Part shown: positions 1 through 40,064 of the stretch, piece after piece | Layout of the letters: every line of letters begins with the position of its first letter | Position numbering within the stretch: position 1 is the first letter of the stretch | Source of the DNA: Bilabrum cf. latius | Taxonomy: Eukaryota | Length of the DNA: 64,000 bases | Direction of reading: 5' to 3' | NCBI GenBank assembly: GCA_965178125.1 | Contig: OZ237743.1 | Location: forward strand, 496,001-560,000 | Notes under the pieces: generated by a model | Told to the model about the DNA's origin: nothing | Database searches by the model: none | What the model saw: the letters and a program-made list of their open reading frames with translations, nothing else | Position numbers and translations under genes: made by a program

Positions 1-2968
1 CCCGCCGTGCCCATTGAGGCCTCGGAGCCGACGGTGCGCACCATCTCAGAGTAGGCAGACCCGGCGCCGTGGCTCTGTGACTCGGCCGACACCGCCCCGG
101 GCTGCTTGGCCATCCGCTGCCTTGACGTCTTTGCCTGCCGTTGGCGACCTTCCTGCGCCACGGCGTCCGCACCCGGCGAGAAAATGCCAGGCTCTCGCCC
201 GTGCCCCTCGCTCTCCGAGGAGTCCCTCTCCTGCATGTGCAGCTCCACGCCCACGCCAGACGCCAAGGCCTGGGTGCCCTCGGCAGATGTGAGCATGGCG
301 GCAGTGCCGTCACCGCCACCATAACCCAGGCCACCGCTCTGGTCTGCGACCTGGCTGCGGTTCCCATCGAACGAAGCCGACCTGCGGGCGGAGTTGTTGG
401 AGCCCCTGGCGCTGTCGGGCGCGCGGCCACCCGCCTGAAGGGAGGCCGCGCTCGAGGCTCGTCTGGGCGAACGCCGCGCGTTGATGCCGGTTGGAAGCCC
501 AGAGAGGGGCGGGATGCCAGTCTTGTGCGACACGAACGGCGGCACGCGCTGCAGCCCCGCGGCACCGGCAGTCCTCCCAGCACCCAGCATTTCCCCCGCT
601 GACTTGCTCTGCAGCATCCTTCGCCCGGCAGAGGCGCCCTTTTCCCTGGAACCAGGCACACTCGTCACGCCCTTGTCCCGTTCAGTGTGCTGTGGATCCA
701 GGGCCCCGCCCCTGTCCACCATCACTTCGTCTCGCAGGAACGAAGGGCCTCTCCCTGCCAGTCTGGGCATGTAGAAGCTGACACCCTGCGTGGGCAGCCC
801 GTCCTCGTCCAGCCCAAGGTCACCGTCACCACCAACCTGCAGTCTCCTCTCGCCTACACCACTCCCATCTTCATCATCTTCCCGATCCTCCTCATCGTCG
901 TAGTCCACTCGAAGCCGCCCCGCCTCCATGGCTCCATCCTCGACACCCTCCGCAGACCGATTCTCGAGGATCCTCGGCACCGCCGGGTCTACGTCCTAGA
1001 GGGCTCGGTCTACCCTGTCTCGGTCCACGTCCCCGTGCAAGGACACGGTCATACCTCGAGAGCCGGAGCTCTGGTACGGCCGGGCCTCGACACCGCGCAT
1101 GCCTGTCGGGCTCGCCGCAGACAGCGGGTTGACGGGCGGCTTCCCCAAGCGTCCAGCCCCCCCGCTCTGATTGCCCGAGGTGCTCCCGCTTCCAACCCTC
1201 TTGGGACCCGCCTTGCTGGTGTCGTCACTGGACCGGTTGGTGGCGGACTGAGACTCGCTCGATGTTCCCACGCCGACTGAGCGAGCCGGTGCCGTGCCGG
1301 TGCCAGCCCCGCCTGACCGTGAGGACGAACCAGACACCATGCCAGGCCGTCCAGGACGCATCGAGGCGCGCAAACCAGGTGAACGGGCCTGGTGCTCAAT
1401 ATCCAGGGAGATCTGAGCCACCGGCATCTCTGTCGTTGGGTCCCGGCCCACGCTGGCCAGCGGTTCGCCTGCTGCCTGCACCGTCTCGCCCTCTGGCCCG
1501 AGCTGGGTCTGGTGCACGACCCCGTAGGTAAATCGATTCTTGCCAAGGCGTCCCTGCCTGCCCGCGAGTTCGCTCGATGCGTGCTTGGTTGGTGTGAGAG
1601 GGGTGCCGTCCGCGCCCTGGTATGGCGAGTGTCTCCCGCCTACTCCCGGGCTTGCCCGGCTTCGGCCCTGCCTGAGTCCTTGCCTGTCGCTCTGGTCAAG
1701 GGCTGCACTGGCCGATAACCGCTTTTCTCTGGCTGCAGGGGAGCGCTGCTTGGGATACTCGCCCGAACCTGCCCTGCCAGCCGCACCCACCCCGAAGGAG
1801 CTAGGGTCCATCGTGTTGGGTGCGCGTGCCGAGGGGCTGCCAGACACCTGTAGCGGTGGCAGGCCCGCCCTCCTTCCACCGTACGAACCGACGGAATTCG
1901 GGCCGCCCCCGCCGACCGTTGAGCCGTCAACCACGATCTCCCCCTCGCGCGCGAACACAATCCGGTTGGCCTCCTCGATCGAAACACGCCTGGAGCGTCT
2001 GGATCGCCGCCGGCCTCCCGGGCCCGCGATCGTGGAGTGCTCGGAGCCGGTTCCCGTCCGGTAGGTCAGGTGTGTGTCTGCTGTCCTGGGCCGAGAACGC
2101 ATGGAGATGCCGGCGGCAGTCACTCCCCTCTCTCCGATACCGCCGGAGGCGCCCGGCCTGCTGCTTTCCTCGTGGACGTCTATGGCCGTGCCGATTCGGG
2201 ATCCTGTCCCTACCCTGGAGCCGGTGGTGCTCCCGGCGCCCGTGTTTGCTGCCCCGCTGCGAGATGCGTGTGACAGCCGCGACAGCCGCTTCCTCGAGGC
2301 CTGTCTCTGCTGCTCCGTCAGCTTGCCCGCCTGACTCGCCGCCGTGGCCTCGGCTGCGTCCCTCGCTGCTTCCTGCATCTGCCCCCATTCGCCTCCGAAA
2401 AACGCGGCGTCTGTTCCTCGGGGGGTGATGTGGCCCAGCGCCCTGCCGACTCCCTCCGCCGCCTGTCGCACCTGGTCTCCTCTGTGCCTTCTGCTGGCGA
2501 GCGAGGACCGGCGAGGCGTCTGACGCAGGTTGGCTGACTATCGTCGGGCGCCTCGCATCGCGGCTGGTGACTTGGGCAGGCCGATGCTGCTGGCAAACGA
2601 GCGCCGGCGCGGAATGTCCTGCCCTGTAGTTGCATCCATCCCAGTGTTGGTGTGAATGCTGTCCAGAGGTTTCTATGCATTCGCGGCATGCAGCCGAGGC
2701 CCATCCGAACTGCTGCCACCGGCGGAGATCTGCCGGACTCGGGGTGGTATGCCGCCAGCCGCGCTATTGTCAGCCACCCTGCCGGTATCCCGGCTATCCT
2801 CGGAACCTGCCAGGCCAGGGAGCCTGGCAAGCCCGCCCCTCTACTGCAGCCCGGGCGCCGCTCCTCCCACGCGGTGGGCCTGCTCAGCAGTAACCTCGAC
2901 AATCCCGCTCACATAACCACTAGCAGTTGCGTCAGCACCAGGCGTGGCCTATTGCGCCTGTGCCTCCA

Positions 2969-3031
<63 letters not shown>

Positions 3032-6000
3032 AGTAGTGGTTTTGCTACCGCCTGGTACCAGCCGCGCCCTCGTTTATCGTGTGAGAGGGAAAGTTCAGTC
3101 GCATGCCACCAGCAGGATCGTCCACCGCCTGGTACCTGTGGTCCTGGTCCGGCAGCCAGTCCGGGTGAGTGGACCGGAACTGGTATCTCTTCTGCTAGTC
3201 GCTGAGGTGCCTCTGCTGCTGCTCGAAGCGCTTCTGTTCCTCCTGCGCCGCGAAGTAGTCCTCCCGCAGCTTTGGCGCTGCGCTCGACTTGGCCGTGTCT
3301 TCGTGCACCGCCCCGATGATCTCGAATTGGTTCTTGTACTTGCGCGAGTCCAGGTCAACGACTCGGAGCACCCACACCTCCTCTTCCTCCACGCCGCAAT
3401 CGCAGCACGCCCCGCCCCTGGCCGGGAAGCAGCACGGGATGCACTGCCGGCAGCACAGCGGCAGGCGCACCCGTCCGCAGCAGCAGGTATCGGCATCTTC
3501 CAGCCCCAAGTCACCCGAGCTCAGGTCCCTGCTGTCCCCCGCGCTAGACGACGACCGCCGGCCTTCTCTGTCGGCAGCGCAGCAACCGCCCGCCCTGCAC
3601 CCGCACCAGTCGGGCAGGCACACCACGGTATCCGCCCATACGTCCCGCAATCGCATCGCAGACGCGAGCGCCAGCAGAGGCACCAGCGCGAAGGCGAGCG
3701 CGTCAAGGATCGTGGAGAAGGCAGGCAGCCACGGGTAAGGCCAAGCACCGCCGCGAGCAAAGCCCTGGCCCGCGCCCACCACGGGCTGCGACCCGAGGTA
3801 GCCCGCCCTCCCTCGACTGCCCACCTGCCAGTCCCATCGCCCCGTGGATGCAACGGCCCACCGCCAGGCCTGTGCCCTGGTCACTGCAGCCGCTTTCGAG
3901 AGGCTCGCAAACGGGCTGTACCTGGAGGAAGGCCCCTCGATCCCTGCCGGTGGTGTGGCCTCCAGCATCAGCAGCCAGTGGATGGACCGCGGCACCGACA
4001 CTGGGGAGGAGATGGGCGGTGACACCGTGCCACCCGTGGAGGTGCCTGTCACGGCGGGAGGGACCTCTGCCACGACCACTGGTAGCAGGGCTGCCGCAGG
4101 CTACCCGTGGAAGTGAGAGAGGGGGGAATACCCGTGGCTTGCGAGGCTCCACTCGTCCTGTGCTGTTGCTCTGGAGAGCAGCTAGTCCAGCCCAGAAGAA
4201 CTGGCCAAATCCGCACCGGTCCACATGTCGTGGGTACTGCTGTTGAATGCAACCCCAGCGAGATCCACAGCCACGTCACCGGAGGAGGCACTGCCGCCAG
4301 GCCCGGACAGCCTGGCCAACCGGGCCAGCACCTCTTCCTGGCGGCCCTCCACGCTCCCAAAGAAATTAGTCACAGTGCCACGACCCCCGAACGAGTTGCA
4401 AGTGTTACCATCCACAGGCACACCGATTCCGCCCCACCGCAGCGCTGGGTGGCCGCAGTTGCCAGCGTACCGTCCGAATGCGGCGTCGGCTCCTGAGTCC
4501 TTCGCGCCCTCGCTAGCCTGACCCGCGTGCCATCGAGCGCCTGCCGATGCCCGCGCCGCCAGGAAGTGTGCGGCCTTTGAAGACGCCGCGCCATTGGTAC
4601 CCACGGCTGTCCGCGCCACGAGCGCAGGCGGCACGTCGCTGAAGCCTCTAGCGAGAGAGTCCGACATGCGGGGCAGTGCAAGAGCGGCAGTGAGGCCGTG
4701 CTCGGGGCTGGCTAATTGACCGACGCTTCGATTCCTCCAGTGGGCGACCCACGCCTCGGCGTCGGTGCCGACGGTGGCAGCGGGCACCAGCACCGCGGGA
4801 TTCCCGCTCGCGCCGATCCCAGCCGCCATGGCTGCAATGTGAGCGGCCGTGAGGTCACCCGCAGCCCCGCTGCCGTAGGAGCCATCCGTGTCACCAAGCA
4901 CCTGACTCAAACCCCCCACATCCAACCCCTCCCCTGCCGAGCCAGAGGCAAACCAGCGAAGCCCTCGAGCAACCGCGTTCGAGGCAGACCCGCCTTGCAG
5001 GGTCACGGCCACGGCCATCCACACCTCACCAGCCAGAACGACCGCAGACAGCAAGCAAGCGGCAAACAGCACCGTGCTTGCAATCGATACTACTCCGAGC
5101 TGTTCGCGCACGCGTTTCCTCGCGTCAGGCCATGCAGGATGCACCAGCATCGCACCCGGATACATGCGCGACCACACGCTGCCCAAAGGATCTCCGCGGC
5201 TGTCTCGACCGGCAGGCTCCCCCGCCGCCCCATCGGGCCCCTATTCGCCCGATGCACCAGCCCCGCCGCCCATCCGAAAGTGCAGGTGCCTCTGGGTCGC
5301 GAGATAGACGCCCCCGTCCGGCTGTCGGATGGTCAGGTCCGGCGCAGCCCCCCTTTCTCTCCTTACGCCCTGCTCGGGTGCCACAGAAGTGTTGGTTGTG
5401 TCGCCCTCGTCCACGTATGCACCTGCATTTCTCATTTGCTCCCTGTCTTTCCTCTTCCTCTTCCTTGCCTCTTTTTCGAACTGCTGCAGCGCGATGCGAG
5501 CCTTCTGCGTGGCTCTCGAGGCGACGTGATGCGGCTGGGCCCCGAAGGCTTCCTCCTTCTGCTGATCGGCCATGGCCTAGCCGCGCTGCTGAGGGTAGCC
5601 CGCGGGCTAGTGCTGCTGTGAGGCGGCGTCGGCCGCACCAACTGCTACCGTGCTCGGGCCAGCAGCAGTGCGATGCACCACGTCCTGCGTGCCCGCCGGT
5701 TGCGGCGAGATGGGAGGCAGCTGCCTGCGCCCGTAGCTGCTCCTGGGCCCCGGCCCCGCCAGGGCGGCGGCTACTCGATCTGCCTGCCTTGCTTGCGGCT
5801 ACTATGGGCGGGCAGCCGCATCACCGTGCTGAGCGCGGTGCTTATGGATCATGGTGACCTGTGGCGCGGCTCCCAGCGCGGCCCGGCCGAGCAGGAGCTG
5901 CCTTCTGCTGTCGTCCTTCAATGGGAGCTGCCTTTGGTCGCTTCCACCGAGGGCCTGTCTTTGGCCAGCACCAGCAGCATCCATAGAGCCAGGCCGGCCC

Positions 6001-8108
6001 TAGTAGCCATGCTGCTGCTGCTGCTGCTGCTGCTGCATAGGCTAGCTCGGCGCGTTTCGGGAAAGAGGAGACTGCATCCTCGTGCCAGTGCCAGTGCCAG
6101 TCCCGGCGTTAGCCACGCCCGACCCCGTGGGTGACGAGGCCCAGCCAATAGCACCAAGCGGGGCACCCCCTTCATCGTACTCTGAACCCCTATCGAACTC
6201 CGTCGGAATTCCCTCCAGAGTCAGGTTTCTCTCCTGCCCCCCATCTATCCGTCGCAACTGCGGGTTCCCGATCGAGTCCCAGTCGATGGCGGGAAGCTCC
6301 GCCTCCTCTCTCTCCGCCTCCTCCTCCTCGCGCAACCGCCTGCTGCGAGCCTCCGCGTCGGCCACCCCCTGCAGGTAGCCGTTGGCCTCGGACATCACCC
6401 GCCAACCGAACCACGTGCCCGCGAGTGCCGCGACCAGCTGCGGCAACACGAACAGGACCTTCACGATCCCGGGCCCCTCAAGCACACAGCCCTCCACGCC
6501 GGGCCGCCACACGCCCGTCGCCCCGGCAAAGATCCCAAATACGATGGTGGACAGCACCCACAGCAGCAAAAAGAACCTGGCGCGAGCGGCAGCGTAGGGC
6601 GCCAGCTTATCCCCCTTTAGCTCAGTGTTGCTCATGGCCTCTTTAAGCATGTCCAGCAGCCAGATCATGACGAGCCTGGCCCCTAGGGCACAGGTCCAGG
6701 CCAGTACGCCCTGGGTGGCGCATCCCCCGCCCACCGTAACCCTGACAGTCACTGCCTTGGCCACGGCCTGAAGCGAAGACGCCACAGCCACCCGTTCGGG
6801 GTCCAGGGCAGTCGCCGAGTCCGCAGTCCACAGAGCATCAGGGGCTACCCCGGCCTGCGATCCGATGCCCGCTTCGATCGTGCAAGCGGGAAGCGGACCC
6901 GGAATCGGAATTCGCCGCGCCGCCTCGCCCTCGGCGGCCGGCAGCCCCGCCTGCATCTCTGCGGCCCAACCTACCCCGGCCGTGTCCCCGAGGGAGTAGT
7001 GGTTCACGCCGCAGCCCGCCGCCCGCAATCCGGATACACCGGGCTGTCCAGTAGCAAACCGGAACACTTCCTCCCGCAGGGCATCGGCGGCTGCGGCGTC
7101 CAGTCCAGAGGAGCCGGGGCGGCCAGCGGATGCGATCCAGCCCACGGCAGCCACCTGTAGCACGCCCCCGACCACTGACGCCACCGGAAACACGATGGAG
7201 GGCCATTTTTTGAACCGATCGTCGGCTGCCATGAGCCGAGCGCCGGCGCAGATGGACGCGATGGCGGCAAGCAGCACGGCGATTGGGACCACCACCATCC
7301 AGGCGTTGATCCACGACGCAAGGGGACCGTCGGTACCATCGGGTCCCGCCCACGCCCAGACACCGTTTTCTAACATGACTTCCTGCCCAGTTTCACCAGA
7401 TCCCGCAAGAACGGCGCCGCTCGGACCGAGCAGGCCGTCCATGTCCTCGGTGCGAGCATTGCTTGGCCGAGAACTGTTTTGCGGCGCCACGCTCCCCTTG
7501 CATCCCTCCAAGACTGCCCGCAAGGCACTCCCATCTCTTCCATCCCAGTGCAAATACTATTTGGTTATTTCTGAAACTGTCCTTCTCGCGTCTGCGAGAG
7601 CTGTGGACCTCGTTGTCGCGGTCTCAGCAGCTGCCACAGCGAGCTCGTTCGGGTCAGGCGACAGCAGCAGCGCGCTGGCACTCCCACCTCCACCCAGCTT
7701 CCATGAAATACAAGACAGATCATGTCTAGCATCGACTTCCACCGTACTTGCCCCGCTGGTCGCCAGCACTATTTGACTGCGAGTTGTGGAGCTACCGAGC
7801 AACTAGGGCTCGCCCCATTCCAACGGACTTGTCGCCGTCTGCAGCTCTGAATGCCTGTCCAGAGCAGCTTGGGAAAGCATAGAGGCATCCAAGCCGAGTG
7901 CACTGATTAGTCCAGGCACCAGGACTACAGATTGCTGTCCAGATGTACCTTGCATCTTCCGTTCAGCCGGGCCACGAACGGCCATTTCGAAGCCCTCTTT
8001 TGCCTTTCTCGGTTCGTTTGCTGTAACGGTCACTACAACAAAAAGTAGCGACAGAATTCCAGCCTTCGGCGAAGCTGCATTAAGCCTAGCCTCCGCACCC
8101 ATCGCCAT
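1..8108 (-). CDS. Very large (>2700 aa, runs off window start) 7TM GPCR-like membrane protein with signal peptide, huge low-complexity loops and polyQ C-terminal tail
   Basis: ORF fragments 7803-8132, 7557-7802, 6042-7553, 5802-5984, 5241-5573, 4182-5186, 3195-4079 and 996-2471 share one frame and each ends in TAG (18 in-frame TAG counted). N-terminus MAMGAE..GILSLLFVVVTVTA is signal-like. Seven hydrophobic segments, a TM3-start motif CATQGVL, a Cys in the loop before TM5, and a Cys cluster after the last helix. Confidence 0.65.
2970..3032 (-). repeat. (CAG)20 polyglutamine tract directly preceded by an in-frame TAG
   Basis: Plus strand (CTG)20 at 2970-3029 followed by CTA at 3030-3032; the minus strand reads TAC TAG CAG CAG... 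Confidence 0.95.
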
Positions 8109-8420
8109 TTGCGAGGTTGTTACTGATTCCACGGCGTTTGCACGGATTCAGGGCCCAAAGGCTCCCCTTGATCCAAACCGCAGGACAGATTGCCTGTAAT
8201 AGCTTCAGCAGTACGTCAACGTATGGCAAAGTATTGCTTGAAATGCCGACCAGCTCATCTCCACCGTCGCCCAGGCCCATTTGTAAAAGTTGGTCGCACG
8301 TCGTCCGGAGCTAGAATCAAAAGCAGTGAGAATTTGCTGGTCAAGTTACTCATAAGAAGGGATATAATTTGTGTTAAGCACTCTGCGAACTTGTGAAAGT
8401 GTATCATTTGTATCGGATTC

Positions 8421-10837: not shown

Positions 10838-13063
10838 ATGGATCTTCGTAGAGTACGGCACGTGTCTCCAGGAAAGGGTTCCTGCTACCAGGATCTCGCT
10901 GTTAGGTTCGATGACGGGGAGTTATCTCCTTCTAGGCTCTTACAGTCCGGGATCGTCTTGCACCGCCGTGAGAACTAGTGATTGCTCTGCTCCTGTGCAC
11001 TTTAAACTCCTCACCAGTTGTAGAGTAGTTTAATTACACGATGTGACATAAGTCTCGCAGACGGCTTCCGGGTGATTGCCTTGGAGACAATTTGCCAGGC
11101 CGTGTCGGTCCCCAGCCACGAGTGCTCTATTAGAGCTCCACAAGTGGTTGCTTTGCCGTAGCTTCCGCCTTTATCAACACCGGGTGGATCGAATAGTTCT
11201 GCATCTGCTCAGTCTGTGAGGCCGCAGCCGTTGCTGGCCCCTCTGTCCGGCCGACGATTGCCAGAGGCAACTGCTGCGCGGCCTGGAGAGGAGTCGTCGC
11301 AGGACTCGAGCATGCCGGCTGGGAAAGACCCGGCCACCGCAAAACCGAGCCTCATCGCCTTGCGACGCATCACAATTGTAGAATCAGGCGAGGGTCAAGC
11401 AGATATGCTAGCCGCAGAGGGACACTTTGCCCGGCTGCGTGCCAGTGGGTACGACCTCGTCGCGCTACAGCCCGCCAGCGAAGCGTCAGCTGTCAAAGCC
11501 GCGCAAGAGGGGTGGGTGGATATCGTAGTCGCATCTACGACCGAGTCTGACGCACCGACTCTCGCCACCTGCCGAGAGAGTGCCAGTGCCAGTGGTACTG
11601 GATCGCGCGGCAGTAGCAGGGGCAGCAAGGCCCATGCAGCCAGCCGCGGGTCCGTGTCTATACGGTGGCACAAGCCATAGCTAGAAGCGATCCTTTAGGC
11701 CGGTGTACCGCTGGAGGCGCGGTATGCACGAGCAATAGCATGCAACGCAGCCCGCGCCGAGCTTCTTTAGCTGCTCGCAAGCTTGCGTCCTCTTGTGCGA
11801 GGCAGGGGTGCGTGCCTCCTTCTCTCCTCTGGGTGCTCCGACGACAGGCTTCTACGGGGTCCTCATGACATCGCTGCGGTGCTGTCTGCGGTCCCTGGGA
11901 CCGGCTTCGGATCTGTGGAGGAATGCCTCAAGGCGCAGTGGCTAGCTCCCGCAGCGCTTCTGCAGGCGGCCGAGCACCGCCGATTCCGGGCGGGGAGGGG
12001 GATCATGGACGTGACTATGCGAAAGCAGGCGGCGGCAAGCCTCAAGCCGGGTCGCAGTCAGTCGGCAGCCATCGGCGGTGCAGCGCTGCCGGGCACAGCT
12101 AAAGCTCGCGTGGTGGAGCGGGGTCAGGCCACCATGGCCGAGCTGGCATCTAGGGAACAAGGCAGCCACTTTGACCAGCTTGCCGCAGAGGCGGCAGAGG
12201 CGTCGTTGTCTGGACCTGCCAGTGGGGCGGGCGCGAGTGCTGCTGCGGGGCCGAGCGGAGGTGACTTACGCAAGGACAGCGGCACATATGGATCGGGCCG
12301 CGGCCGGTCCAAGCTGCAGGGCACGAGCACCGCTCCATGCCCGCATGCTCTGAGTCCGCTGGGCGCTGCTGTGGCAGCAGGGATCATTCAGGGGCGTGTT
12401 TCGCCGTCGACCGCTGCAAGGGGTGCGGTGTCCGTGACTGCGCTCCGTAGGGCCATCGCAGTAGTGGGGCTTGGCGAACCATGGCGGGGTGACGGTGGCA
12501 TGCCCATGTGTGCCAAAGGTGGGGAGAAATTGAGCGTGGGGGATGACAAGGAATAGGTGGCCATGCAATTATCTGATGGACCTATTAGTCGAATCGGGCG
12601 GCCCGCGGACAACCCAGCGAGTGCCGGACAGCAGCTGTCTCGTTCGCAGCGCAGGCGATTAAGGCGCAAGAGGCAACGCCAGGCAGTCCAAGCGGCTGGA
12701 TAGCAACAATCAGGCCGGGAAAAATTGGATTCTAGGGGAGCTGCTGTCCCAACCAAGGACACAGGGGCTGCAAGTGGCTCGGCGGCCATGCAGGATGGTG
12801 ACCCGGATGAGGATGGTGACGACAGCGACGAGAAGGATGCGGGCATGGGAGGGTCTGGCCTTGGCGGCTCGGCTGGAGATGCGGCGCCTGATAGTGGGGG
12901 CCTGGGCAGTCGGCTCAGGGCCATGATCGAGCAGGGCAAGAAGGACGGTACCGTGCGGGGAAGGTCGGGTGCAGTGGAGCGCACTGCCGAAGCTGCGGCG
13001 AAGGGAGACAGCGCCGCGGCGGCGATGCAAGAGGAAACGGGCTTGAAATTCGTAGATTTCTGA
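10838..13063 (+). CDS. RPP30: RNase P/MRP subunit p30 with long C-terminal extension; exons 10838-10967 and 11061-13063
   Basis: YQDLAV..HGFRVIAL, LRRITI, YDLVALQP, VDIV, AGVPLEARYARAI, LLLSSG..LRGPHDI motifs. GT-AG intron 10968-11060 with consistent phase. 6 in-frame TAG, three inside the conserved fold. Ends TGA. Confidence 0.85.
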
Positions 13064-13194
13064 GGCCGAAATGCAACAAAATGGGAAATTCCAAGCGCAC
13101 AAGCCCGGTGCACACGCATCACCACCTAATCCAATTCACGACCCAACGGGTCATCCTCCCTGCCATTGCCCCACAACCCACGACAAACTAATCG

Positions 13195-16100
13195 TCACGC
13201 CGAGTATTCATTGATGTACTCCCGGTGCATGTCAAAGGCAGCCGGCCAATCGATGCCATCGCTGAATCCAGCCCGGCGCGACCTGCCCCTGCGCCTGCGG
13301 GTCGCCTCTTGTTCCCGTTCCCACAGATCCCGCGCCACGGTCTTGTGCAGGAATAGGTCGTCGTGTGCCCAGGCCAGCTCGCGCACGTATCCTTTCTGCA
13401 GCAGCAGCCTGGTCACGCGCGCTCTCTGCTCCATTTCAAAGTTGTGCTCGATGGCGAGGGCACCGAACTGGAACGAGTCGAAGTCGAACTCGCGCAGAAC
13501 CTCCCACTCGAGCCCTTCAATGTCCAGGGACAGAAAGTGGATGAACGGTGGCGCGTTTGCCTCCCGCAGCACGGATTGCAGAGATTTGGCCCTGATCGTC
13601 CCCGCAGAGAAATCCCTAGTCCACTCCACCGGCGTGCCATCCTCGACCATCTTGCCGATCCCTTCCAGCAGCGACGCGTCCATGTACCGAGCCGTCGCAT
13701 TGATCTGATCTCGCATCGCGCCGGAAGGATAGAACATCGCATACTCTTTGTGCTGCTCGCACGAGGTCATGCCAGCCGCCTTCTGCTCTGCAGTGCACTC
13801 AGTGACATCGGGCGGGCCAAGCAGGGCTCGCACGGCATGGCTGCGGGGACGGAAGTGCTAGATGGACTCGATGCACTCTCGGCGAGCCTCCACCAGGACA
13901 CCGCTCCAGTTGTAGTATCGTTCCATCGCAAGCGTGTTGCTGTAGGCAAGTCCGTCAACCGCCCCCGCTTCCACAAAGAAGCCCCCCCGTAGCCCAGGGT
14001 ACACATGTTCCATCACCCAGCGGTCCTGCCAAATCTGTCCTTTCCATGCCGCAGGCGTGACCGCGCTCTTCCAGATGTGCGGGCTGCCGATCGCCCACGG
14101 AGGCACAGACAGGGGGTCGCGCGGGTCGGTCACCTGGCGGCCGGAAGCTGCAGCGGCCCTGAGCCCTTTCGCCTATGATGCCACGGTCAAGGGGTGCACC
14201 TAGCCCGGGACAAGGAAGACACCGTCCTTGGTTGGCCAGCGAGCCTGCAACGGAACCAGCGGGGGTGCCTGAGTCGCCGATGCCTTCCCGTGCTTGCATG
14301 CGTCAAAGCATCGCTACTATGACATCATGCAGCTGAGGTACTCCCCCAGCCTCGTTGCATCTACCGCCGTGCTGATGTCTTCGACACTCGGGACTCTGAG
14401 ATGCTTTGGCACGGGCTCGCCATTCAGCTGAGGTCCATCGGTGGTGGTCAGTAGCGCGTGGCACCGCTCGCTCCTCTTCCGGATAGAGATGTCTTGCATG
14501 GCGGCGTTTAGCTGCTTTGTCTTGGCCTGGTCTCCGTCAGCCTCAAGGGCTCTAGTGATGACTTGGATGGCATCAGACACGATCGAATCCCACAGCGACG
14601 GGTGCGCTAGTCCCGAGGGCTGGTGGGCAGTGAGAAGTGCGTCTGGCTGGGCAGCCTTCCTCGCGATTGAGGTCCCGAAGATCGCCAGCTCATTCGCAGC
14701 TGCCACTCTTCTTGCGGCGAGCGAGCCTGCTGGTTTCAAATCACCGCGACTGGCCTTGCTCTCCGCCTCTTCAGCATCCGTGCTGTCCTTCAGCATCCGC
14801 GGGACCAGGGCCTCGTTGTCCTCCGGGGTACCGGTCCAGGCGGCCGTCGCAACGAGCGCCGCCAGTGCCCTCTCTACCCCGCTGGTGTCATCAGGGGCAA
14901 CCACGTGCTGGTGTTCACGCAAGGGATAGGATGAATACGTCTCGTAGCGTTCCATTGCGATCGTCCTGAAAAGAAGCGCGGCCGCTCCTGGGGCAGCCGT
15001 CACCCTGCTGAGGAGTCGGGCGGCAGGGTCGATTGGCCCCTGATACCGGCTGCTGGGGCTGTCCACGCCCTGCTGGATGTACTCAAAATACGACTCAATG
15101 ACGCGATCGTCCCCCACCACTCTAGTCGGGTCATTGGTCTTGCCCCCCGGCCTGGGCACGACCAGGTTGTGCTCTCCCTTGCCCTGAGATGCCCTCCTCC
15201 TCTCTAGCAGTCTGCTCTGCCTCGCGCCCCTCAGCTTGTCCCACCGCTGAGACACGATTTCACGGATGCGAGACCCAGACAGCTGCCCGTTTGCCTCCTA
15301 TGCCTCGCGCAGGGTCATCGCAAGGTCTCTGAGAGAGTCGCTGTCGCTGCGTGTCGTGCGCGTGACAGGCACAGCCGAGTCCACTAGATCAAGGAAGGCG
15401 TCAAGCGGGTTGTAAGCACCCTTGACGATTCCGATGCGGGCTGCAGATGCAAGGGCTGCAGCGAGAGGGGATGATACATTAAACACTCGGGGTCTCGAGT
15501 TGAGCACGCTCTGCATTGCGACGAGGGCGGGCCGGCGCGCGGGCCGAGAGCCTCCTTGCTGCTGTGCCTCCATGAACTGGGCGCTGAGACTGGACTGCGG
15601 GCGGTCCAGCGCCCGTCTGTACTCCGGAGACACAAGGGTTTTAGAGAATCCTGATGGATCCGCGTACTCAGGATTCGCCACATGAGACCCGTCGATGGCC
15701 TGGCCGGATTCGCTCAGCGAAGGGCCCTCCAGCTCCGGCGGAAAAACCAATGCAGGTTCCATTTCGATCATGCACGGAGTACACGAGCCATAGTGTGTGG
15801 CATGTCCAACATATGCCGAGATAGCCCACACCGGTGCAATCGGCAAGCAGCTCGCAAGCAGATTAGTCTTCGACGCTGCGCTGCACACATTCTCGTAGTC
15901 TTCGACGACCGCGTCCTTGGCTGCACGTGCAGCGCTTTCCGACAAGTCCAACGAATATCGAAATGCAGGCTGAACCGACCCGGAGAGCACGTTTCGAATT
16001 CCAACAAGCCCTGCTGCCGACTGCGATCCATGGTTCTGGGTGACCCCAGCCAGCTACTGGATCGCAGCTTGCTGTGCTAAAAACCTTCCATCCGACTGGT

Positions 16101-16284
16101 AGGTACTGTGCTATACTGCACCTGTAGCCTGGGTGGCATCATACTGATGCCAGTAGATCTCGGTATCAAAATCGTTGCTCGCAGAAGCGTGATCATTCGC
16201 ACCGGAGGCAATGATCAACTTAGCATGCGTAATTTCCTACAACAGACAAGCTGCAACAGCAACATATGATAGAATAGTACGCAT
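13195..16284 (-). CDS. Secreted/luminal FkbM-like (Methyltransf_21) SAM methyltransferase with long N-terminal region, copy 1
   Basis: Signal peptide MRTILSYVAVAACLL; GQIWQDRWV, GGFFVEAGAVDGLAYSNT, WSGVLVEA, IHFLSLDIEGLEWEVL, AIEHN. One frame with 9 TAG. Ends TGA. Confidence 0.8.
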
Positions 16285-16341
16285 GACCAGAAAATTTGTG
16301 GAATGACAGGGGTTTGTACAGGACAACACGCGCTCAATCCA

Positions 16342-16836
16342 GTTAACAGAGAGAGACGATATTGATATGAGAGTGAGAGACAATGGAGGTGTTGCACGAC
16401 GCCCGCGGCGTGAGGTGCTTGCACCTTTTAGGCTGAGGTCGCGCGCTGGGCACAGCGCTCGGGCGAGTAGACACGTCGTGGGGCGTGATTCAGGTGAGGG
16501 AAAAGGGGGGTGGGTGGAATGGAGGAAAGGTGGACCAGGTGGACAAGGTGGACGGGGTGCATGAAGCGGGAGGCACAGACAGGGCAGGAATGTGGGAAGG
16601 GGGTGGTGAGGACCGGAGGGGTTCCGGATTAGAATGGGGGTTAGGAGAGGATACAATCTCCCAATCCAGATGCCGTCATCGGAAGCATCGGCAGTCACAA
16701 ATAAGTCGGACGAGGCGCTGCAGCCGTAGGCGACAAGAGAGCGAGTTGGAGCACTCTGAATTGTGACCAAGTGTGACTGATAGCGAGACAAGAAGTGCTG
16801 TGTACAGTGTGTGATCTCAGCAATTCAATACCAGAA
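16342..16836 (-). mobile_element. 495-bp insertion with 6-bp target-site duplication AATCCA (putative non-autonomous or 5'-truncated retroelement)
   Basis: AATCCA at 16336-16341 and 16837-16842. The paralogous copy has the empty site (TTCAATCCACTGGTGCC, ~20342). Strongly pyrimidine-rich on the minus strand. Confidence 0.75.
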
Positions 16837-16897
16837 AATCCACTGGTGCCTCGGCCGCGCGTTGAATGCAATAACCGGAACTTCGTTGAAACGCCAC

Positions 16898-17139
16898 TGG
16901 CACTGGTTGGGTGATCCGATCCCCCTGATCCAAGTCACTCGTCACACAAATGCCCAAACCCCCGCCAGCCGGCCTGTGCCTCCCCCTTCTAATCCGCCGT
17001 ATCAGCCCTTTGACCCCACCACTCATCTTCTCCTCCACAACTTCCTCCCCACTTGGTGAACCGCCGCCCCCTCCTCTCTGCTTTGGCCCCCCGCCCATCC
17101 CTTGCCCTCTCTCTCTGCTCCGCAACCCCCCCGAATCCT
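16898..17139 (+). mobile_element. 242-bp C-rich filler at the duplication junction, possibly related to the 495-bp insertion
   Basis: Absent from both duplicated units. Shares short motifs with the reverse complement of 16342-16836 (CTGG(A)TTGGG.GAT, CCCC.TTCTAATCCG, CTGTGCCTCCC). Confidence 0.45.
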
Positions 17140-17200
17140 ATTCACGACCCAACGGGTCATCCTCCCTGCCATTGCCCCACAACCCACGACAAACTAATCG

Positions 17201-20200
17201 TCACGCCGAGTATTCATTGATGTACTCCCGGTGCATGTCAAAGGCAGCCGGCCAATCGATGCCATCGCTGAATCCAGCCCGGCGCGACCTGCCCCTGCGC
17301 CTGCGGGTCGCCTCTTGTTCCCGTTCCCACAGATCCCGCGCCACGGTCTTGTGCAGGAATAGGTCGTCGTGTGCCCAGGCCAGCTCGCGCACGTATCCTT
17401 TCTGCAGCAGCAGCCTGGTCACGCGCGCTCTCTGCTCCATTTCAAAGTTGTGCTCGATGGCGAGGGCACCGAACTGGAACGAGTCGAAGTCGAACTCGCG
17501 CAGAACCTCCCACTCGAGCCCTTCAATGTCCAGGGACAGAAAGTGGATGAACGGTGGCGCGTTTGCCTCCCGCAGCACGGATTGCAGAGATTTGGCCCTG
17601 ATCGTCCCCGCAGAGAAATCCCTAGTCCACTCCACCGGCGTGCCATCCTCGACCATCTTGCCGATCCCTTCCAGCAGCGACGCGTCCATGTACCGAGCCG
17701 TCGCATTGATCTGATCTCGCATCGCGCCGGAAGGATAGAACATCGCATACTCTTTGTGCTGCTCGCACGAGGTCATGCCAGCCGCCTTCTGCTCTGCAGT
17801 GCACTCAGTGACATCGGGCGGGCCAAGCAGGGCTCGCACGGCATGGCTGCGGGGACGGAAGTGCTAGATGGACTCGATGCACTCTCGGCGAGCCTCCACC
17901 AGGACACCGCTCCAGTTGTAGTATCGTTCCATCGCAAGCGTGTTGCTGTAGGCAAGGCCGTCAACCGCCCCCGCTTCCACAAAGAAGCCCCCCCGTAGCC
18001 CAGGGTACACATGTTCCATCACCCAGCGGTCCTGCCAAATCTGTCCTTTCCATGCCGCAGGCGTGACCGCGCTCTTCCAGATGTGCGGGCTGCCGATCGC
18101 CCACGGAGGCACAGACAGGGGGTCGCGCGGGTCGGTCACCTGGCGGCCGGAAGCTGCAGCGGCCCTGAGCCCTTTCGCCTATGATGCCACGGTCAAGGGG
18201 TGCACCTAGCCCGGGACAAGGAAGACACCGTCCTTGGTTGGCCAGCGAGCCTGCAACGGAACCAGCGGGGGTGCCTGAGTCGCCGATGCCTTCCCGTGCT
18301 TGCATGCGTCAAAGCATCGCTGCTATGACATCATGCAGCTGAGGTACTCCCCCAGCCTCGTTGCATCTACCGCCGTGCTGATGTTTTCGACACTCGGGAC
18401 TCTGAGATGCTTTGGCACGGGCTCGCCATTCAGCTGAGGTCCATCGGTGGTGGTCAGTAGCGCGTGGCACCGCTCGCTCCTCTTCCGGATAGAGATGTCT
18501 TGCATGGCGGCGTTTAGCTGCTTTGTCTTGGCCTGGTCTCCGTCAGCCTCAAGGGCTCTAGTGATGACTTGGATGGCATCAGACACGATCGAATCCCACA
18601 GCGACGGGTGCGCTAGTCCCGAGGGCTGGTAGGCAGTGAGAAGTGCGTCTGGCTGGGCAGCCTTCCTCGCGATTGAGGTCCCGAAGATCGCCAGCTCATT
18701 CGCAGCTGCCACTCTTCTTGCGGCGAGCGAGCCTGCTGGTTTCAAATCACCGCGGCTGGCCTTGCTCTCCGCCTCTTCAGCATCCGTGCTGTCCTTCAGC
18801 ATCCGCGGGACCAGGGCCTCGTTGTCCTCCGGGGTACCGGTCCAGGCGGCCGTCGCAACGAGCGCCGCCAGTGCCCTCTCTACCCCGCTGGTGTCATCAG
18901 GGGCAACCACGTGCTGGTGTTCACGCAAGGGATAGGATGAATACGTCTCGTAGCGTTCCATTGCGATCGTCCTGAAAAGAAGCGCGGCCGCTCCTGGGGC
19001 AGCCGTCACCCTGCTGAGGAGTCGGGCGGCAGGGTCGATTGGCCCCTGATACCGGCTGCTGGGGCTGTCCACGCCCTGCTGGATGTACTCAAAATACGAC
19101 TCAATGACGCGATCGTCCCCCACCACTCTAGTCGGGTCATTGGTCTTGCCCCCCGGCCTGGGCACGACCAGGTTGTGCTCTCCCTTGCCCTGTGATGCCC
19201 TCCTCCTCTCTAGCAGTCTGCTCTGCCTCGCGCCCCTCAGCTTGTCCCACCGCTGAGACACGATTTCACGGATGCGAGACCCAGACAACTGCCCGTTTGC
19301 CTCCTATGCCTCGCGCAGGGTCATCGCAAGGTCTCTGAGTGAGTCGCTGTCGCTGCGTGTCGTGCGCGTGACAGGCACAGCCGAGTCCACTAGATCAAGG
19401 AAGGCGTCAAGCGGGTTGTAAGCACCCTTGACGATTCCGATGCGGGCTGCAGATGCAAGGGCTGCAGCGAGAGGGGATGATACATTAAACACTCGGGGTC
19501 TCGAGTTGAGCACGCTCTGCATTGCGACGAGGGCGGGCCGGCGCGCGGGCCGAGAGCCTCCTTGCTGCTGTGCCTCCATGAACTGGGCGCTGAGACTGGA
19601 CTGCGGGCGGTCCAGCGCCCGTCTGTACTCCGGAGACACAAGGGTTTTAGAGAATCCTGATGGATCCGCGTACTCAGGATTCGCCACATGAGACCCGTCG
19701 ATGGCCTGACCGGATTCGCTCAGCGAAGGGCCCTCCAGCTCCGGCGGAAAAACCAATGCAGGTTCCATTTCGTTCATGCACGGAGTACACGAGCCATAGT
19801 GTGTGGCATGTCCAACATATGCCGAGATAGCCCACACCGGTGCAATCGGCAAGCAGCTCGCAAGCAGATTAGTCTTCGACGCTGCGCTGCACACATTCTC
19901 GTAGTCTTCGACGACCGCGTCCTTGGCTGCACGTGCAGCGCTTTCCGACAAGTCCAACGAATATCGAAATGCAGGCTGAACCGACCCGGAGAGCACGTTT
20001 CGAATTCCAACAAGCCCTGCTGCCGACTGCGATCCATGGTTCTGAGTGACCCCAGCCAGCTACTGGATCGCAGCTTGCTGTGCTAAAAACCTTCCATCCG
20101 ACTGATAGGTACTGTGCTATACTGCACCTGTAGCCTGGGTGGCATCATACTGATGCCAGTATGCGATCTCGGTATCAAAATCGCTGCTCGCAGAAGCGTG

Positions 20201-20293
20201 ATCATTCGCACCGGAGGCAATGATCAACTTAGCATGCGTAATTTCCTACAACAGACAAGCTGCAACAGCAACATATGATAGAATAGTACGCAT
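17201..20293 (-). CDS. Secreted/luminal FkbM-like methyltransferase, copy 2
   Basis: Near-identical to copy 1 at offset 4006 (4009 after a 3-nt in-frame indel near 20161). 8 in-frame TAG. Ends TGA. Confidence 0.8.
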
Positions 20294-20457
20294 GACCAGA
20301 AAATTTGTGGAATGACAGGGGTTTGTACAGGACAACACGCGTTCAATCCACTGGTGCCTCGGCCGCGCGTTGAAAGCAATAACCGGAACTTCTTTGAAAC
20401 GCCACCACGAGTCCGTTCTTGCTCTCTCCCGTGTCGCTATGCAGCATATAACGAGCT

Positions 20458-23400: not shown

Positions 23401-23631
23401 GCCAGATGTGAAAGTCAACGTTTCGCACGGACCGGTCGCTGCGTCACGAAGCAAATTTTTCACAGAGAGGCGAGCTTTGCGAATGGAGTCCTTCGGGGAT
23501 CTACCAAACGCGTGACTAGAGCTTGGATTCCCAAAGTCGCTCTGGTGATCCAGATGTGCCACAATTGCAGAGCGAACTCGAGGATCCACCGGCGTAGTGC
23601 CATTGACATCCAGATAGACTACCCCTGGCAT
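20458..23631 (-). CDS. Fusion: selenocysteine lyase/NifS-type PLP enzyme + AlaX-type aminoacyl-tRNA editing domain (~1057 aa)
   Basis: VYLDVNGTTP, FGNPSSSH, TFTSGGTES, SIEH, MLANNESG, HVDASQ, AGHK (PLP Lys), GGGQEDGRRAGTEN, ASAGAACHS (catalytic Cys), IRLSCGRFTT; then TVFHPQGGGQPSDVG, HSGGH and CPCGGTHV (AlaX Zn motifs). 3 in-frame TAG (23371, 22591, 22516). Ends TGA. Confidence 0.85.
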
Positions 23632-23770
23632 GGCTTCTGCAGTGTTTCTGTGAGGCGTCACCCGGCTGCGGCGTCCAAATCTAGATCGTGTGACGAGCGA
23701 TTGTGAACCAAGAGAGGGATGGATCAGGACAACGCAACACGCTATACGAAAACTAGACCCCATCATGAAT

Positions 23771-35473: not shown

Positions 35474-36248
35474 GCTGTTTGTCAGGGCCAAGGTAGCGCA
35501 TTGGGGTGTGTGCAACCAGCGCACGCCCCGCGGCGGCGACTGGGCGTCGTGCTCCTCCTCGCCTGTCGAGCGGGGCGCGCCTTCCCAGACGCATGGGGTT
35601 GCGGGACTGCGTGTCGGCTGCATGGCCAGCGCAGGCCCCGTCAGTGGTGGATAAATAGGATTGGGTGGATCGGGAGGGGTCAGCCGCACGTGCTGGGACG
35701 GGGCTTTGGCTGAAATGGCCAAGTCTGGTACCATCGAAAACGAGCGTGTGGTTGTCCTTGGATGGGGAGAAGTGTAGCTCGCTTGATTGAAGTTCAAACG
35801 CTGTCTCTTGTCCAAAGCCTGCTCGCTGCCCCTTTCTGCTGCAGTCCCTAGACAAGAGTGTGATGTCCTTCTGCGAACGAACCGGAACCTTCACTTCAAT
35901 CCACTTTCAGCTCAACGGCGAGAGCTGGAAGGCTTAGATAGGCCGCACAGCTGCTGGAGCAACTTACGAGCAGCATTTCAATCGGAGCTGCGATCACTGC
36001 TTGCACCGCCGCGATAAATCGGCAGCGCACACCACTGCTCGATTTGCTGCAGTCGACCGGTCGCACCTTCCGTGCAGATAGAACTCAACGTTTGTCCGTA
36101 TCCAGGGTACTCCCCAGCTGCCAATACAGTTTGGCATATTTGTCAATTCAAGTCAGCTTCGGGTCCTGCTTTCACCAGAGAACGCGCTAGGCAGATTGGC
36201 GCAGACAACTGCTAGTAGTTCGGAATACACAAGACTAGCCCACCTGCT

Positions 36249-39899: not shown

Positions 39900-40064
39900 T
39901 GGTAGTTTAAGCGATCAGACGGTGCCAGCTTATTGCTCATGAAATTGGCCGTGCTGTCGTTGGAGCGGCACGGTTGGATGAATCGGAAGCGTCAATTCCA
40001 TGCAACGTTGGACCTACGGTCGGATTCGTGGTGCTGTAATTACCCCATGCCACCATTTGACAAT

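What the first reader, a model, noticed from the sequence alone, without database searches (positions are those of the whole stretch)
14314..18325. Internal control for Gln: TAG in one paralog is CAG in the other
Copy 1 reads TCA TAG TAG CGA (minus strand, second TAG at 14314-14316) and copy 2 reads TCA TAG CAG CGA (CAG at 18320-18322). Most other substitutions I found between the copies are synonymous (GGA/GGC, AGT/AGC, TCT/TCA, CTG/TTG, ACC/ACT, TAC/TAT), and the single indel is 3 nt. Both TAG-laden frames therefore look conserved, and TAG behaves like a synonym of CAG.
Basis: seen in the sequence. Interest (0 to 1): 0.8.

Follow-up and report, generated by a model that had tools for sequence, protein, structure and literature searches.

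The report
TAG codes glutamine in duplicated gene
Two nearly identical neighbouring gene copies differ by TAG versus CAG at one codon, and wider evidence shows that this GC-rich microbial eukaryote reads the stop codon TAG as glutamine, a rare but already known kind of genetic-code change.

Summary
On the minus strand copy 1 reads TCA TAG TAG CGA and copy 2 reads TCA TAG CAG CGA. They lie in a tandem duplication (13115-16341 and 17121-20350; 19 mismatches and one 3-nt indel in 3230 columns).

Each copy is a 1029/1030-codon gene for a membrane-anchored protein with a C-terminal FkbM methyltransferase domain, carrying 9 and 8 in-frame TAGs. Apart from TAG/CAG, 8 of 12 coding substitutions are synonymous (dN/dS 0.17, p=0.003).

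On its own the TAG/CAG difference is weak evidence.
- All long genes of the window stay open only if TAG is sense: 99 TAG, 0 TAA and 0 TGA in 16,325 codons.
- In a close relative (91% identical), 2 of 3 of our TAGs face Gln.
- 5 of 6 fragment ends in that relative fall on our CAG or TAG.
- An environmental ortholog (L001) also has in-frame TAGs. They exchange with Gln as often as CAG/CAA do (25%).
- A likelihood over 18 exchanges gives Gln a posterior of 0.998.

TAA and TGA remain stops, so this is a UAG-only-to-Gln code, a known type. The organism is unidentified. No tRNA, eRF1 or peptide evidence was obtainable.

The parts
14314..14316 (-). TAG codon 657 of copy 1, the site of the finding
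18320..18322 (-). CAG codon 658 of copy 2, the paralogous site
14317..14319 (-). TAG codon 656 of copy 1, shared with copy 2 (18323-18325)
13195..16284 (-). Copy 1 coding sequence: 1029 codons plus TGA stop, 9 in-frame TAG. Starts MRTILSYVAVAACLL. FkbM Methyltransf_21 domain at the C-terminus.
17201..20293 (-). Copy 2 coding sequence: 1030 codons plus TGA stop, 8 in-frame TAG, one extra GCA codon
13115..16341 (.). Duplicated segment, copy 1 (99.3% identical to 17121-20350)
17121..20350 (.). Duplicated segment, copy 2
16342..17120 (.). Spacer between the copies. It holds G-rich and C-rich low-complexity stretches that are high-copy in the read sets (summed contig depth 400-2000 in X2). It also holds a 61-nt piece (16837-16897) repeated just upstream of copy 2 (20345-20405).
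3..8147 (-). 2715-codon open frame (runs off the window) with 19 in-frame TAG. TAG 969 (5241-5243) and TAG 2384 (996-998) face Gln in the close relative. CAG 692 and CAG 2245 face the relative's fragment ends.
11006..13060 (+). RNase P p30-like gene with 7 in-frame TAG. The relative's fragment P0121 begins just after TAG 255 and ends at TAG 517.

Best explanation
The window is nuclear DNA of a GC-rich (about 61%), gene-dense, intron-poor eukaryote. In it UAG is an ordinary sense codon for glutamine, while UGA (mostly) and UAA end genes.

The finding lies in a recent tandem duplication, with a period of about 4.0 kb. The duplicated gene encodes a protein with an N-terminal hydrophobic anchor and a C-terminal FkbM-family methyltransferase domain.

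The TAG/CAG difference between the copies is a synonymous C<->T transition, one of 9 silent changes against 4 amino-acid changes.

Shown here:
- the duplication;
- the open, selectively constrained frames;
- TAG as a sense codon across the window and in two other related sequences;
- Gln as by far the best-fitting meaning;
- TAA and TGA as terminators.

Inferred from what is established for other UAG-to-Gln lineages, and not tested here: decoding by a tRNA-Gln with anticodon CUA, and a release factor eRF1 that no longer recognises UAG efficiently.
For: 1. Sense codon.
- With TAG read through, the window gives frames of 2715, 2253, 1660, 1313, 1293, 1209, 1123, 1118 and 1093 codons. Open frames of 300 aa or more rise from 14,168 to 30,324 residues.
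- The chance of no TGA/TAA in an arbitrary frame is 2.7e-7 for 1029 codons and 4.6e-18 for 2715.
- 15 of the 16 long frames hold 2-21 TAG each.
- The frames carry eukaryotic domains: protein kinase, SRP54-type GTPase, RNase P p30, pseudouridine synthase, TIG/PA14, ion channel, DUF268, class-V aminotransferase and FkbM.

2. Constraint on the two copies. There are 8 synonymous and 4 non-synonymous changes, dN/dS 0.165, p=0.0027. The coding GC signature runs through the TAGs.

3. Gln, from a close relative (2209 aligned codons, 91.4% identical).
- Q faces TAG 969 and TAG 2384 in fully conserved contexts.
- Overall our TAG faces Q, Q and S. Our CAG faces Q in 69 of 74 cases and our CAA in 7 of 7. 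Q faces non-Gln codons in 10 of 2125 cases.
- P(at least 2 of 3 Q if TAG is not Gln) = 6.6e-5.

4. The relative's standard-code fragments end opposite our CAG 692, TAG 1322 and CAG 2245 (long frame), TAG 517 (p30 gene), and CAG 404 and ATG 238 (FkbM gene). That is 5 of 6 on Gln-type codons, which make up 4.6% of codons; p=1.1e-6.

5. Environmental ortholog L001 (3210 bp, GC 62.4%). One frame, 8 in-frame TAG, ends in TGA, 883 aligned codons at 45.6% identity. Of 12 TAG exchanges, 3 are with CAG. Ordinary Gln pairs with Gln at 16 of 65 (25%) in the same alignment, whereas R-R is 58% and E-E is 48%.

6. P0001 (DUF268, 59% identical) has Q at one of our TAGs in a conserved context and R at another.

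7. The likelihood over 18 exchanges gives Gln a posterior of 0.998.

8. TAG only.
- There are 0 TAA and 0 TGA against 99 TAG in 16,325 codons. About 34.5 TAA would be expected if TAA followed the CAA:CAG ratio.
- Of 16 gene ends, 13 are TGA and 3 are TAA. Among them are the two cathepsin genes, one ending in TGA and one in TAA, both directly after ...SASYPEK(N/K).
Against: - The single TAG/CAG site is weak alone: a 0.108 chance that some substitution hits a TAG codon, and transitions dominate, 9 of 13.
- The close relative has S, not Q, at TAG 329 of the FkbM gene, in a stretch where 5 of 6 neighbouring residues also differ.
- L001 has CGG (Arg) opposite TAG 809 in a perfectly conserved context, and 9 of the 12 exchanges with L001 are not Gln.
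- L001 has V and R opposite the very pair of the finding, codons 656 and 657.
- In distant FkbM homologs the column of TAG 809 reads R 23, K 18, Q 16, V 13 of 118 non-gap residues.
- The three alignable DUF268 columns are variable, with Q only second or third most common.
- One of the relative's fragments ends opposite ATG, not a Gln codon.
- Adjacency of TAG to CAG/CAA codons (15 of 99) is high but not distinctive: TTA is at 4 of 26 and CAA only at 16 of 167.
- No tRNA gene lies in the window and no genome is held. No eRF1, RNA or peptide data are available.
- Whether TAG also terminates some genes cannot be excluded from 16 gene ends.
Confidence: 0.92

Rival explanations
1. TAG is a sense codon but stands for another amino acid, with Arg, Glu, Lys or Ser the least unlikely. 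The TAG/CAG difference would then be an amino-acid replacement.
For: - CGG (Arg) faces TAG 809 in a perfectly conserved context in L001, and CGT faces TAG 657.
- R is the commonest residue in the distant-homolog column of TAG 809: 23 of 118.
- P0001 has R at one TAG.
- S faces TAG 329 in the close relative.
- UAG = Ser is reported for the green alga Scotinosphaera and UAG = Leu for a rhizarian (passages of PMC11687900; PMC5304391).
Against: - The likelihood over 18 exchanges puts Arg at -6.9, Glu at -7.1, Lys at -10.0 and Ser at -12.1 lnL below Gln.
- In L001, R pairs with R at 58% and E with E at 48%, but TAG pairs with R in 2 of 12 and with E in 1 of 12. The 25% rate for Gln matches.
- At 91% identity the relative shows Q at 2 of 3 TAGs. 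Q faces non-Gln codons in only 10 of 2125 cases.
- The relative's in-frame stops sit on our CAG three times.
Confidence: 0.03
2. [quoted passage not shown] The code would then not be a clean reassignment.
For: Nothing positive here. Only 16 gene ends could be read. A gene that truly ended in TAG would simply appear extended to the next TGA/TAA in my frames. Dual-meaning codes are on record (abstracts listed).
Against: - All 16 gene ends are explained by TGA (13) or TAA (3).
- The FkbM gene and its L001 ortholog both end in TGA at nearly the same place.
- The two cathepsin genes end in TGA and in TAA directly after ...SASYPEK(N/K).
Confidence: 0.08
3. The TAG-laden frames are not translated (pseudogenes or non-coding DNA), or the TAGs are removed from the mRNA by splicing or editing. 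The TAG/CAG difference would then be meaningless drift or an assembly error.
For: No run on record as RNA could be laid, so retention of TAG in mRNA is not shown. The organism does splice: each cathepsin gene has one GT-AG intron.
Against: - Frames of 1000-2700 codons with no TGA, TAA or frameshift cannot arise by chance.
- The copies show purifying selection.
- Two other sources keep the same frames open with TAGs at partly the same sites: TAG 1322 and TAG 517 in the close relative, and 8 TAGs in L001.
- Introns would not keep frame nine times in one gene. The residues flanking the TAGs align without gaps to homologs.
Confidence: 0.01

Closest known systems
UAG-only-to-glutamine nuclear codes (the pattern of NCBI table 15): the fornicate Iotanema spirale, the ciliates Protocruzia tuzeti, Hartmannula sinica and Trochilia petrani
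   Same: UAG is read as Gln while UAA and UGA stay terminators. This is stated in passages of PMC5304391 and PMC11687900. TAG is a minority Gln codon both here (13% of Gln codons) and in I. spirale (about 8%, passage).
   Different: This genome is about 61% GC, gene-dense with 130-250 nt between genes, and uses TGA for 13 of 16 gene ends. I could not place the organism, so I cannot say whether it belongs to any of these lineages. The assignment to table 15 is recalled and comes from no call.
UAR-to-glutamine codes (NCBI table 6 type): many ciliates, hexamitin diplomonads, some oxymonads, several ulvophycean green algae, the aphelid Amoeboaphelidium protococcarum
   Same: A stop codon is captured for Gln, presumably through a tRNA-Gln with a mutated anticodon (passages).
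   Different: TAA is not a sense codon here: 0 in-frame TAA against 99 TAG, with 34.5 expected, and TAA ends 3 genes. Amoeboaphelidium genomes are about 40% GC (Table 1 of PMC10608142), unlike this window.
TAG-to-Gln recoding in crAss-like and other gut phages (genetic code 15)
   Same: The same codon takes the same new meaning (abstract of PMC9523058 in the listing).
   Different: Those are AT-rich phage genomes. This is a eukaryotic nuclear locus with spliceosomal introns and eukaryotic gene families.
FkbM-family methyltransferases (Pfam PF05050, Methyltransf_21)
   Same: The C-terminal 200 residues of both copies match the domain: E=1.1e-10, 42.3 bits against a cut-off of 22.7. 7462 library proteins match at E<=0.001, most through this domain.
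   Different: The protein is about 1030 residues. Its roughly 720-residue N-terminal part has relatives only in the close relative and in L001/L002-type environmental sequences. The substrate is unknown.

Membership tests
UAG-only-to-Gln nuclear genetic code | In-frame TAG codons inside conserved, constrained coding frames | tested here: met
   There are 99 TAG in 16,325 codons of 15 frames. Frames of up to 2715 codons stay open. dN/dS of the duplicated gene is 0.165. The same holds in the close relative and in L001.
UAG-only-to-Gln nuclear genetic code | TAG positions correspond to glutamine in homologs | tested here: met
   Q faces 2 of 3 TAGs in the 91%-identical relative. 3 of 12 exchanges with L001 are with CAG, equal to the Gln-Gln rate. 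The likelihood posterior for Gln is 0.998 over 18 exchanges. The sample is small and comes from one window.
UAG-only-to-Gln nuclear genetic code | UAA and UGA are not sense codons and end genes | tested here: met
   No TAA or TGA lies in frame in 16,325 codons. Of 16 gene ends, 13 are TGA and 3 are TAA.
UAG-only-to-Gln nuclear genetic code | UAG is no longer used as a terminator | tested here: inconclusive
   None of the 16 gene ends needs TAG. A TAG terminator would be read through in my frames, and 16 ends are few.
UAG-only-to-Gln nuclear genetic code | A tRNA-Gln gene with anticodon CUA | not testable with these tools
   The window holds 0 tRNA genes and no whole genome is held.
UAG-only-to-Gln nuclear genetic code | eRF1 altered in its stop-codon recognition domain | not testable with these tools
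   eRF1 is not in the window and no genome is held.
UAR-to-Gln code (table 6 type) | TAA also read as Gln | tested here: not met
   There are 0 in-frame TAA against 34.5 expected. TAA is seen only at the edges of frames and as the terminator of 3 genes.
FkbM methyltransferase family (PF05050) | Significant match to the Methyltransf_21 profile above the curated cut-off | tested here: met
   E=1.1e-10, 42.3 bits against a cut-off of 22.7, residues 953-1146 of the 1209-residue frame, profile positions 2-171 of 173.
FkbM methyltransferase family (PF05050) | SAM-dependent methyl transfer | not tested
   No structure prediction or assay was run. The function is inferred from the domain match only.

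The most novel reading that the evidence does not exclude
This may be an undescribed, independent origin of the UAG-only-to-glutamine code. It would lie in a GC-rich, compact, non-ciliate eukaryotic lineage and be shared by a clade that includes a 91%-identical relative and uncultured environmental relatives (L001/L002). It would have arisen in a genome where GC pressure and TGA-dominated termination differ from the AT-rich settings of most stop-codon captures.
Probability: 0.35. Interest if true: 0.75.

Novelty: new member of a known kind. Interest (0 to 1): 0.55.

Why it matters
Nuclear codes in which UAG and UAA have different meanings are few: by the passages read, one fornicate, one rhizarian, one green alga and a handful of ciliates. 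Each new, independent case bears on how a stop codon is captured.

A GC-rich genome that ends 13 of 16 genes with TGA and uses TAG for 13% of its glutamine codons is a useful contrast to the AT-rich ciliate cases.

There is also a practical point. Every standard-code gene call on this organism and its relatives is fragmented. The database proteins I recovered from the relative are pieces cut at TAG. Annotation, orthology and metagenome binning for this clade therefore need the alternative table.

The paralog site itself is a small internal control that agrees with the larger evidence.

Tried and rejected
- Whole genome: none is held. So there was no genome-wide codon-exchange table, no tRNA(CUA) search and no eRF1.
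- tRNA scan of the window: 0 genes.
- Rfam at gathering thresholds: 0 matches.
- Earlier findings of the scan: nothing by place, relatives or words.
- Distant-homolog columns alone did not settle the amino acid. The DUF268 columns gave S21/K20/Q13, L27/Q26/P25 and H14/Q12. The FkbM column for TAG 809 gave R23/K18/Q16. TAG 153 of the selenocysteine-lyase-like gene faces K or H in solved structures, at a variable site.
- Adjacency to Gln codons: TAG 15 of 99, CAG 97 of 479, CAA 16 of 167. This is suggestive only.
- The inverted cathepsin pair (52833-55702) was examined for more TAG exchanges. It has no in-frame TAG in its exons.
- The RNase P p30 search returned 1 protein, the relative's fragment.
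- First metagenome scan, with part of the long frame: 84 pattern matches, none a relative.
- Sequencing runs: no RNA holder is listed. All four runs laid were contigs, so neither expression, nor retention of TAG in mRNA, nor both alleles within one data set could be shown.
- Placing the organism failed:
  - The atlas look-up of the cathepsin domain gave only 'Eukaryota, commonest Streptophyta'.
  - The cluster look-up of 10 distant homologs gave no names.
  - The poly(A) motifs TGTAA and AATAAA are not enriched after stops.
- An aphelid origin was considered and rejected on GC content: about 40% against about 61% (Table 1 of PMC10608142).
- Literature: seven full-text searches found no report of a UAG-to-Gln nuclear code in a GC-rich non-ciliate lineage. 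Only listings, abstracts and passages were read. Supplementary tables of PMC5304391 and PMC11687900 were not opened and may list further lineages. Subscription-journal papers are not in the library.

Full report
**The observation.** On the minus strand the window reads ATG TCA TAG TAG CGA at 14325-14311 and ATG TCA TAG CAG CGA at 18331-18317. The only difference there is A at 14316 against G at 18322 on the + strand.

The two sites lie in a direct tandem duplication, 13115-16341 and 17121-20350: 99.3% identical over 3230 columns, with 19 mismatches and one 3-nt gap.

**The duplicated gene.** With TAG read through, each copy holds one long minus-strand frame. From the shared first ATG the coding sequences are 13195-16284 (1029 codons, 9 TAG) and 17201-20293 (1030 codons, 8 TAG). 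Both end in TGA.

The protein starts with a hydrophobic stretch, MRTILSYVAVAACLL. I read this as a signal anchor, which is an inference. It ends in an FkbM-type methyltransferase domain (PF05050, E=1.1e-10, 42.3 bits against a cut-off of 22.7).

**Differences between the copies.** Of the 19 mismatches:
- 5 sit at the edge of the repeat downstream of the stop;
- 1 sits upstream of the ATG;
- 13 are coding: 8 synonymous, 4 non-synonymous and the TAG/CAG site.

The indel is one whole GCA codon. With 768 synonymous and 2319 non-synonymous sites, dN/dS is 0.165. The excess of silent changes has p=0.0027. Silent changes lie between and after the TAGs. The GC3>GC1>GC2 signature holds in every segment of 100 or more codons between TAGs, while the other two frames hold 17 and 30 TGA/TAA. 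So the frames are constrained across their TAGs.

**How much the single site says.** Little on its own. With 27 TAG nucleotides among 3087, the chance that at least one of 13 substitutions hits a TAG codon is 0.108. Nine of the 13 coding substitutions are transitions, so TAG<->CAG is the likeliest change a priori. The site agrees with TAG = Gln but does not establish it.

**Is the duplication real?** I laid the contigs of four public runs on 11000-21000.
- In X2 the repeat unit is one collapsed contig (13134-16332) at depth 74.8, against 33 and 44 in the flanks. It is a mosaic, with copy-2 letters at 13951, 14625 and 15187 and the copy-1 letter at 14316.
- In X5 and X6 a contig identical to copy 2 covers 17136-20214 and 17111-20343. 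Its depth is 156 and 18, against 10-14 and 2-9 in the flanks.

Both letters therefore occur in assemblies made apart from the window, and the depth in X2 fits two copies. X2 may be the window's own source. Contigs drop minor variants, and none of the runs is on record as RNA. The much higher relative depth in X5 and X6 is unexplained; more copies or RNA would both fit.

**The window as a whole.** GC is 54-68% in 2-kb steps. Reading TAG as sense raises open frames of 300 or more residues from 14,168 to 30,324 residues. It gives frames of 2715, 2253, 1660, 1313, 1293, 1209, 1123, 1118 and 1093 codons. For an arbitrary frame the chance of no TGA/TAA is 2.7e-7 over 1029 codons and 4.6e-18 over 2715.

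The frames carry eukaryotic families:
- an AGC-type protein kinase;
- an SRP-receptor-like GTPase;
- RNase P p30;
- a pseudouridine synthase;
- a TIG/PA14 giant protein;
- a potassium-channel-like protein;
- DUF268;
- a selenocysteine-lyase-like enzyme (best solved match 3a9x, E=3.4e-52);
- CBS and WD40 proteins.

Fifteen of the 16 long frames hold 2-21 TAG each. In 15 frames trimmed to their first ATG there are 99 TAG, 479 CAG, 167 CAA, 0 TAA and 0 TGA among 16,325 codons.

Genes are packed, with 130-250 nt between them, and convergent stops lie 134-170 nt apart. Introns exist: each of two head-to-head cathepsin L-like genes has one GT-AG intron.

**Which amino acid: a close relative.** Database searches returned short proteins 84-94% identical to parts of three genes of the window. 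These are pieces of orthologs called under the standard code. Two of them share a 6654-base contig in the same order as the window, so synteny is kept.

Over 2209 aligned codons identity is 91.4%. Three of our TAGs are spanned:
- TAG 969 of the long frame (…GASGE-X-GPDGAAGEP…) faces Q in a fully conserved context.
- TAG 2384 of the long frame (…DRVDRAL-X-DVDPAV…) faces Q in a fully conserved context.
- TAG 329 of the FkbM gene faces S, in a stretch where 5 of 6 neighbouring residues also differ.

In the same alignments our CAG faces Q in 69 of 74 cases and our CAA in 7 of 7. Q faces non-Gln codons in only 10 of 2125 cases. The probability of at least 2 of 3 Q if TAG were not Gln is 6.6e-5.

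The ends of the relative's fragments mark its in-frame stops. They fall opposite our CAG 692, TAG 1322 and CAG 2245 (long frame), TAG 517 (p30 gene), CAG 404 and ATG 238 (FkbM gene). That is 5 of 6 on Gln-type codons, which are 4.6% of all codons; p=1.1e-6.

One of these proteins (P0274) is listed with '-' for sources, the mark the tool uses for the window's own proteins, although it is only 91% identical. The 'relative' may therefore be a divergent second copy in the same assembly or a sister strain. I cannot tell which. Either way it is a different sequence.

**Which amino acid: an environmental ortholog.** The fragment P0128 led to a metagenome contig, L001 (3210 bases, GC 62.4%). L001 encodes an ortholog of the FkbM gene in one frame, with 8 in-frame TAG and a TGA stop. 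L002 is the same organism (99.4% identical in the overlap) and adds one more in-frame TAG.

Over 883 aligned codons (45.6% identical) there are 12 aligned TAG exchanges, counted in both directions: CAG three times, then CGG, CGT, GAC, GAT, GAG, GTG, GCC, GCT and GGA once each. Two of the CAG cases sit in strongly conserved contexts (…RLLL-q-HGYVRE… and …WGG-q-ILQDRW…).

One counter-example is equally well embedded: CGG opposite our TAG 809 (…ECIESI-X-HFRPRS…). The pair of the finding itself (656, 657) faces V and R.

The control matters here. In the same alignment ordinary Gln pairs with Gln at 16 of 65 (25%, symmetrised count). TAG pairs with Gln at 3 of 12 (25%). By contrast R-R is 58%, E-E 48%, D-D 54% and A-A 52%. 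TAG behaves like a Gln codon and unlike an Arg, Glu, Asp or Ala codon.

P0001, a DUF268 homolog 59% identical, adds one Q in a conserved context and one R.

**Likelihood.** A BLOSUM62-based likelihood over all 18 exchanges (Q 7, R 3, A 2, D 2, and S, V, G, E 1 each) puts Gln first. Arg is 6.9, Glu 7.1, Lys 10.0 and Ser 12.1 lnL units behind. The posterior for Gln under a flat prior is 0.998.

**TAA and TGA.** TAA occurs only at the edges of the real frames. With 99 TAG and a CAA:CAG ratio of 0.35, about 34.5 in-frame TAA would be expected if TAA were also Gln. None is seen.

Of 16 gene ends read, 13 are TGA and 3 are TAA. The two cathepsin genes end in TGA and TAA directly after …SASYPEK(N/K). 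So this is a UAG-only change. Whether UAG also terminates some genes cannot be excluded from 16 ends.

**Mechanism.** Shown: UAG is decoded as an amino acid in many genes, and that amino acid is almost certainly Gln.

Inferred from established knowledge of other lineages: a tRNA-Gln with anticodon CUA reads UAG but not UAA, as shown experimentally in Tetrahymena according to the passage of PMC5304391 seen. The release factor would be expected to have lost efficient UAG recognition.

Neither inference could be tested. There is no tRNA in the window and no genome is held.

**Comparison with what is known.** UAG-only-to-Gln nuclear codes are reported for Iotanema spirale, Protocruzia tuzeti, Hartmannula sinica and Trochilia petrani. 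UAG = Leu is reported for a rhizarian and some ciliates, and UAG = Ser for Scotinosphaera. UAR = Gln is reported for many ciliates, hexamitins, an oxymonad, ulvophytes and Amoeboaphelidium. I read passages only, in PMC5304391 and PMC11687900.

The present case is the same kind of code. Amoeboaphelidium is excluded by its GC of about 40% (Table 1 of PMC10608142) and by TAA being a stop here.

I could not place the organism. Seven full-text searches found no report of this code in a GC-rich non-ciliate lineage. The library lacks most subscription journals, and I did not open supplementary tables.

**Verdict.** The phenomenon is a new member of a known kind unless the organism turns out to be one already described. 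Interest is moderate, and higher if this proves to be an independent origin in a GC-rich lineage.

Noticed in passing
window 52833-55702: Two cathepsin L-like (papain family) genes lie head to head as an inverted repeat, with arms 90-97% alike. Each has a signal peptide, a propeptide and one canonical GT-AG intron (about 54503-55050 in the + copy). Neither has an in-frame TAG in its exons. One ends in TGA and the other in TAA.
   Followed up: partly
window 16342-17120: The spacer between the two gene copies consists of G-rich and C-rich low-complexity stretches that are high-copy in the read sets (summed contig depth 400-2000 in X2, against 33-44 for flanking genes). A 61-nt piece (16837-16897) recurs just upstream of copy 2 (20345-20405). 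Copy 1 therefore seems to carry an insertion of about 495 bp in its upstream region.
   Followed up: partly
window 17111-20343 in runs X5 and X6: Only the copy-2 form of the repeat appears as a contig. Its depth is 156 and 18, against 10-14 and 2-9 for the flanks. The cause could be more copies in those strains, RNA in the libraries or assembler behaviour. It was not resolved.
   Followed up: no
window 2959-3039 (minus strand, frame 3-8147): A (CAG)n tract encoding about 22 glutamines begins with a TAG codon (…AAC CAC TAC TAG CAG CAG…). A second poly-Q run in the same frame holds two adjacent TAGs (codons 782-783). This is consistent with C-to-T changes inside Gln tracts.
   Followed up: partly
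window 20461-23829 (minus strand): A selenocysteine-lyase/NifS-like class-V aminotransferase domain (3a9x, E=3.4e-52) is followed in the same open frame by about 700 further residues. These end in motifs (…HSGGHLLDH…, …CPCGGTHV…) that I recall from alanyl-tRNA editing (AlaX-type) domains. That recollection was not tested, and Pfam reported no second domain.
   Followed up: no
window 11006-16284 and 36018-41432: Convergent gene pairs have only 134 and 171 nt between their stop codons, and same-strand neighbours lie 130-250 nt apart. The genome is unusually compact for a eukaryote with proteins of 1000-2700 residues.
   Followed up: partly
L001 1-3210 and L002 1-1664: Environmental contigs of about 60-62% GC carry an ortholog of the duplicated gene with its own in-frame TAGs. 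The recoded lineage therefore has uncultured relatives in metagenomes whose genes are fragmented by standard-code gene calling.
   Followed up: yes
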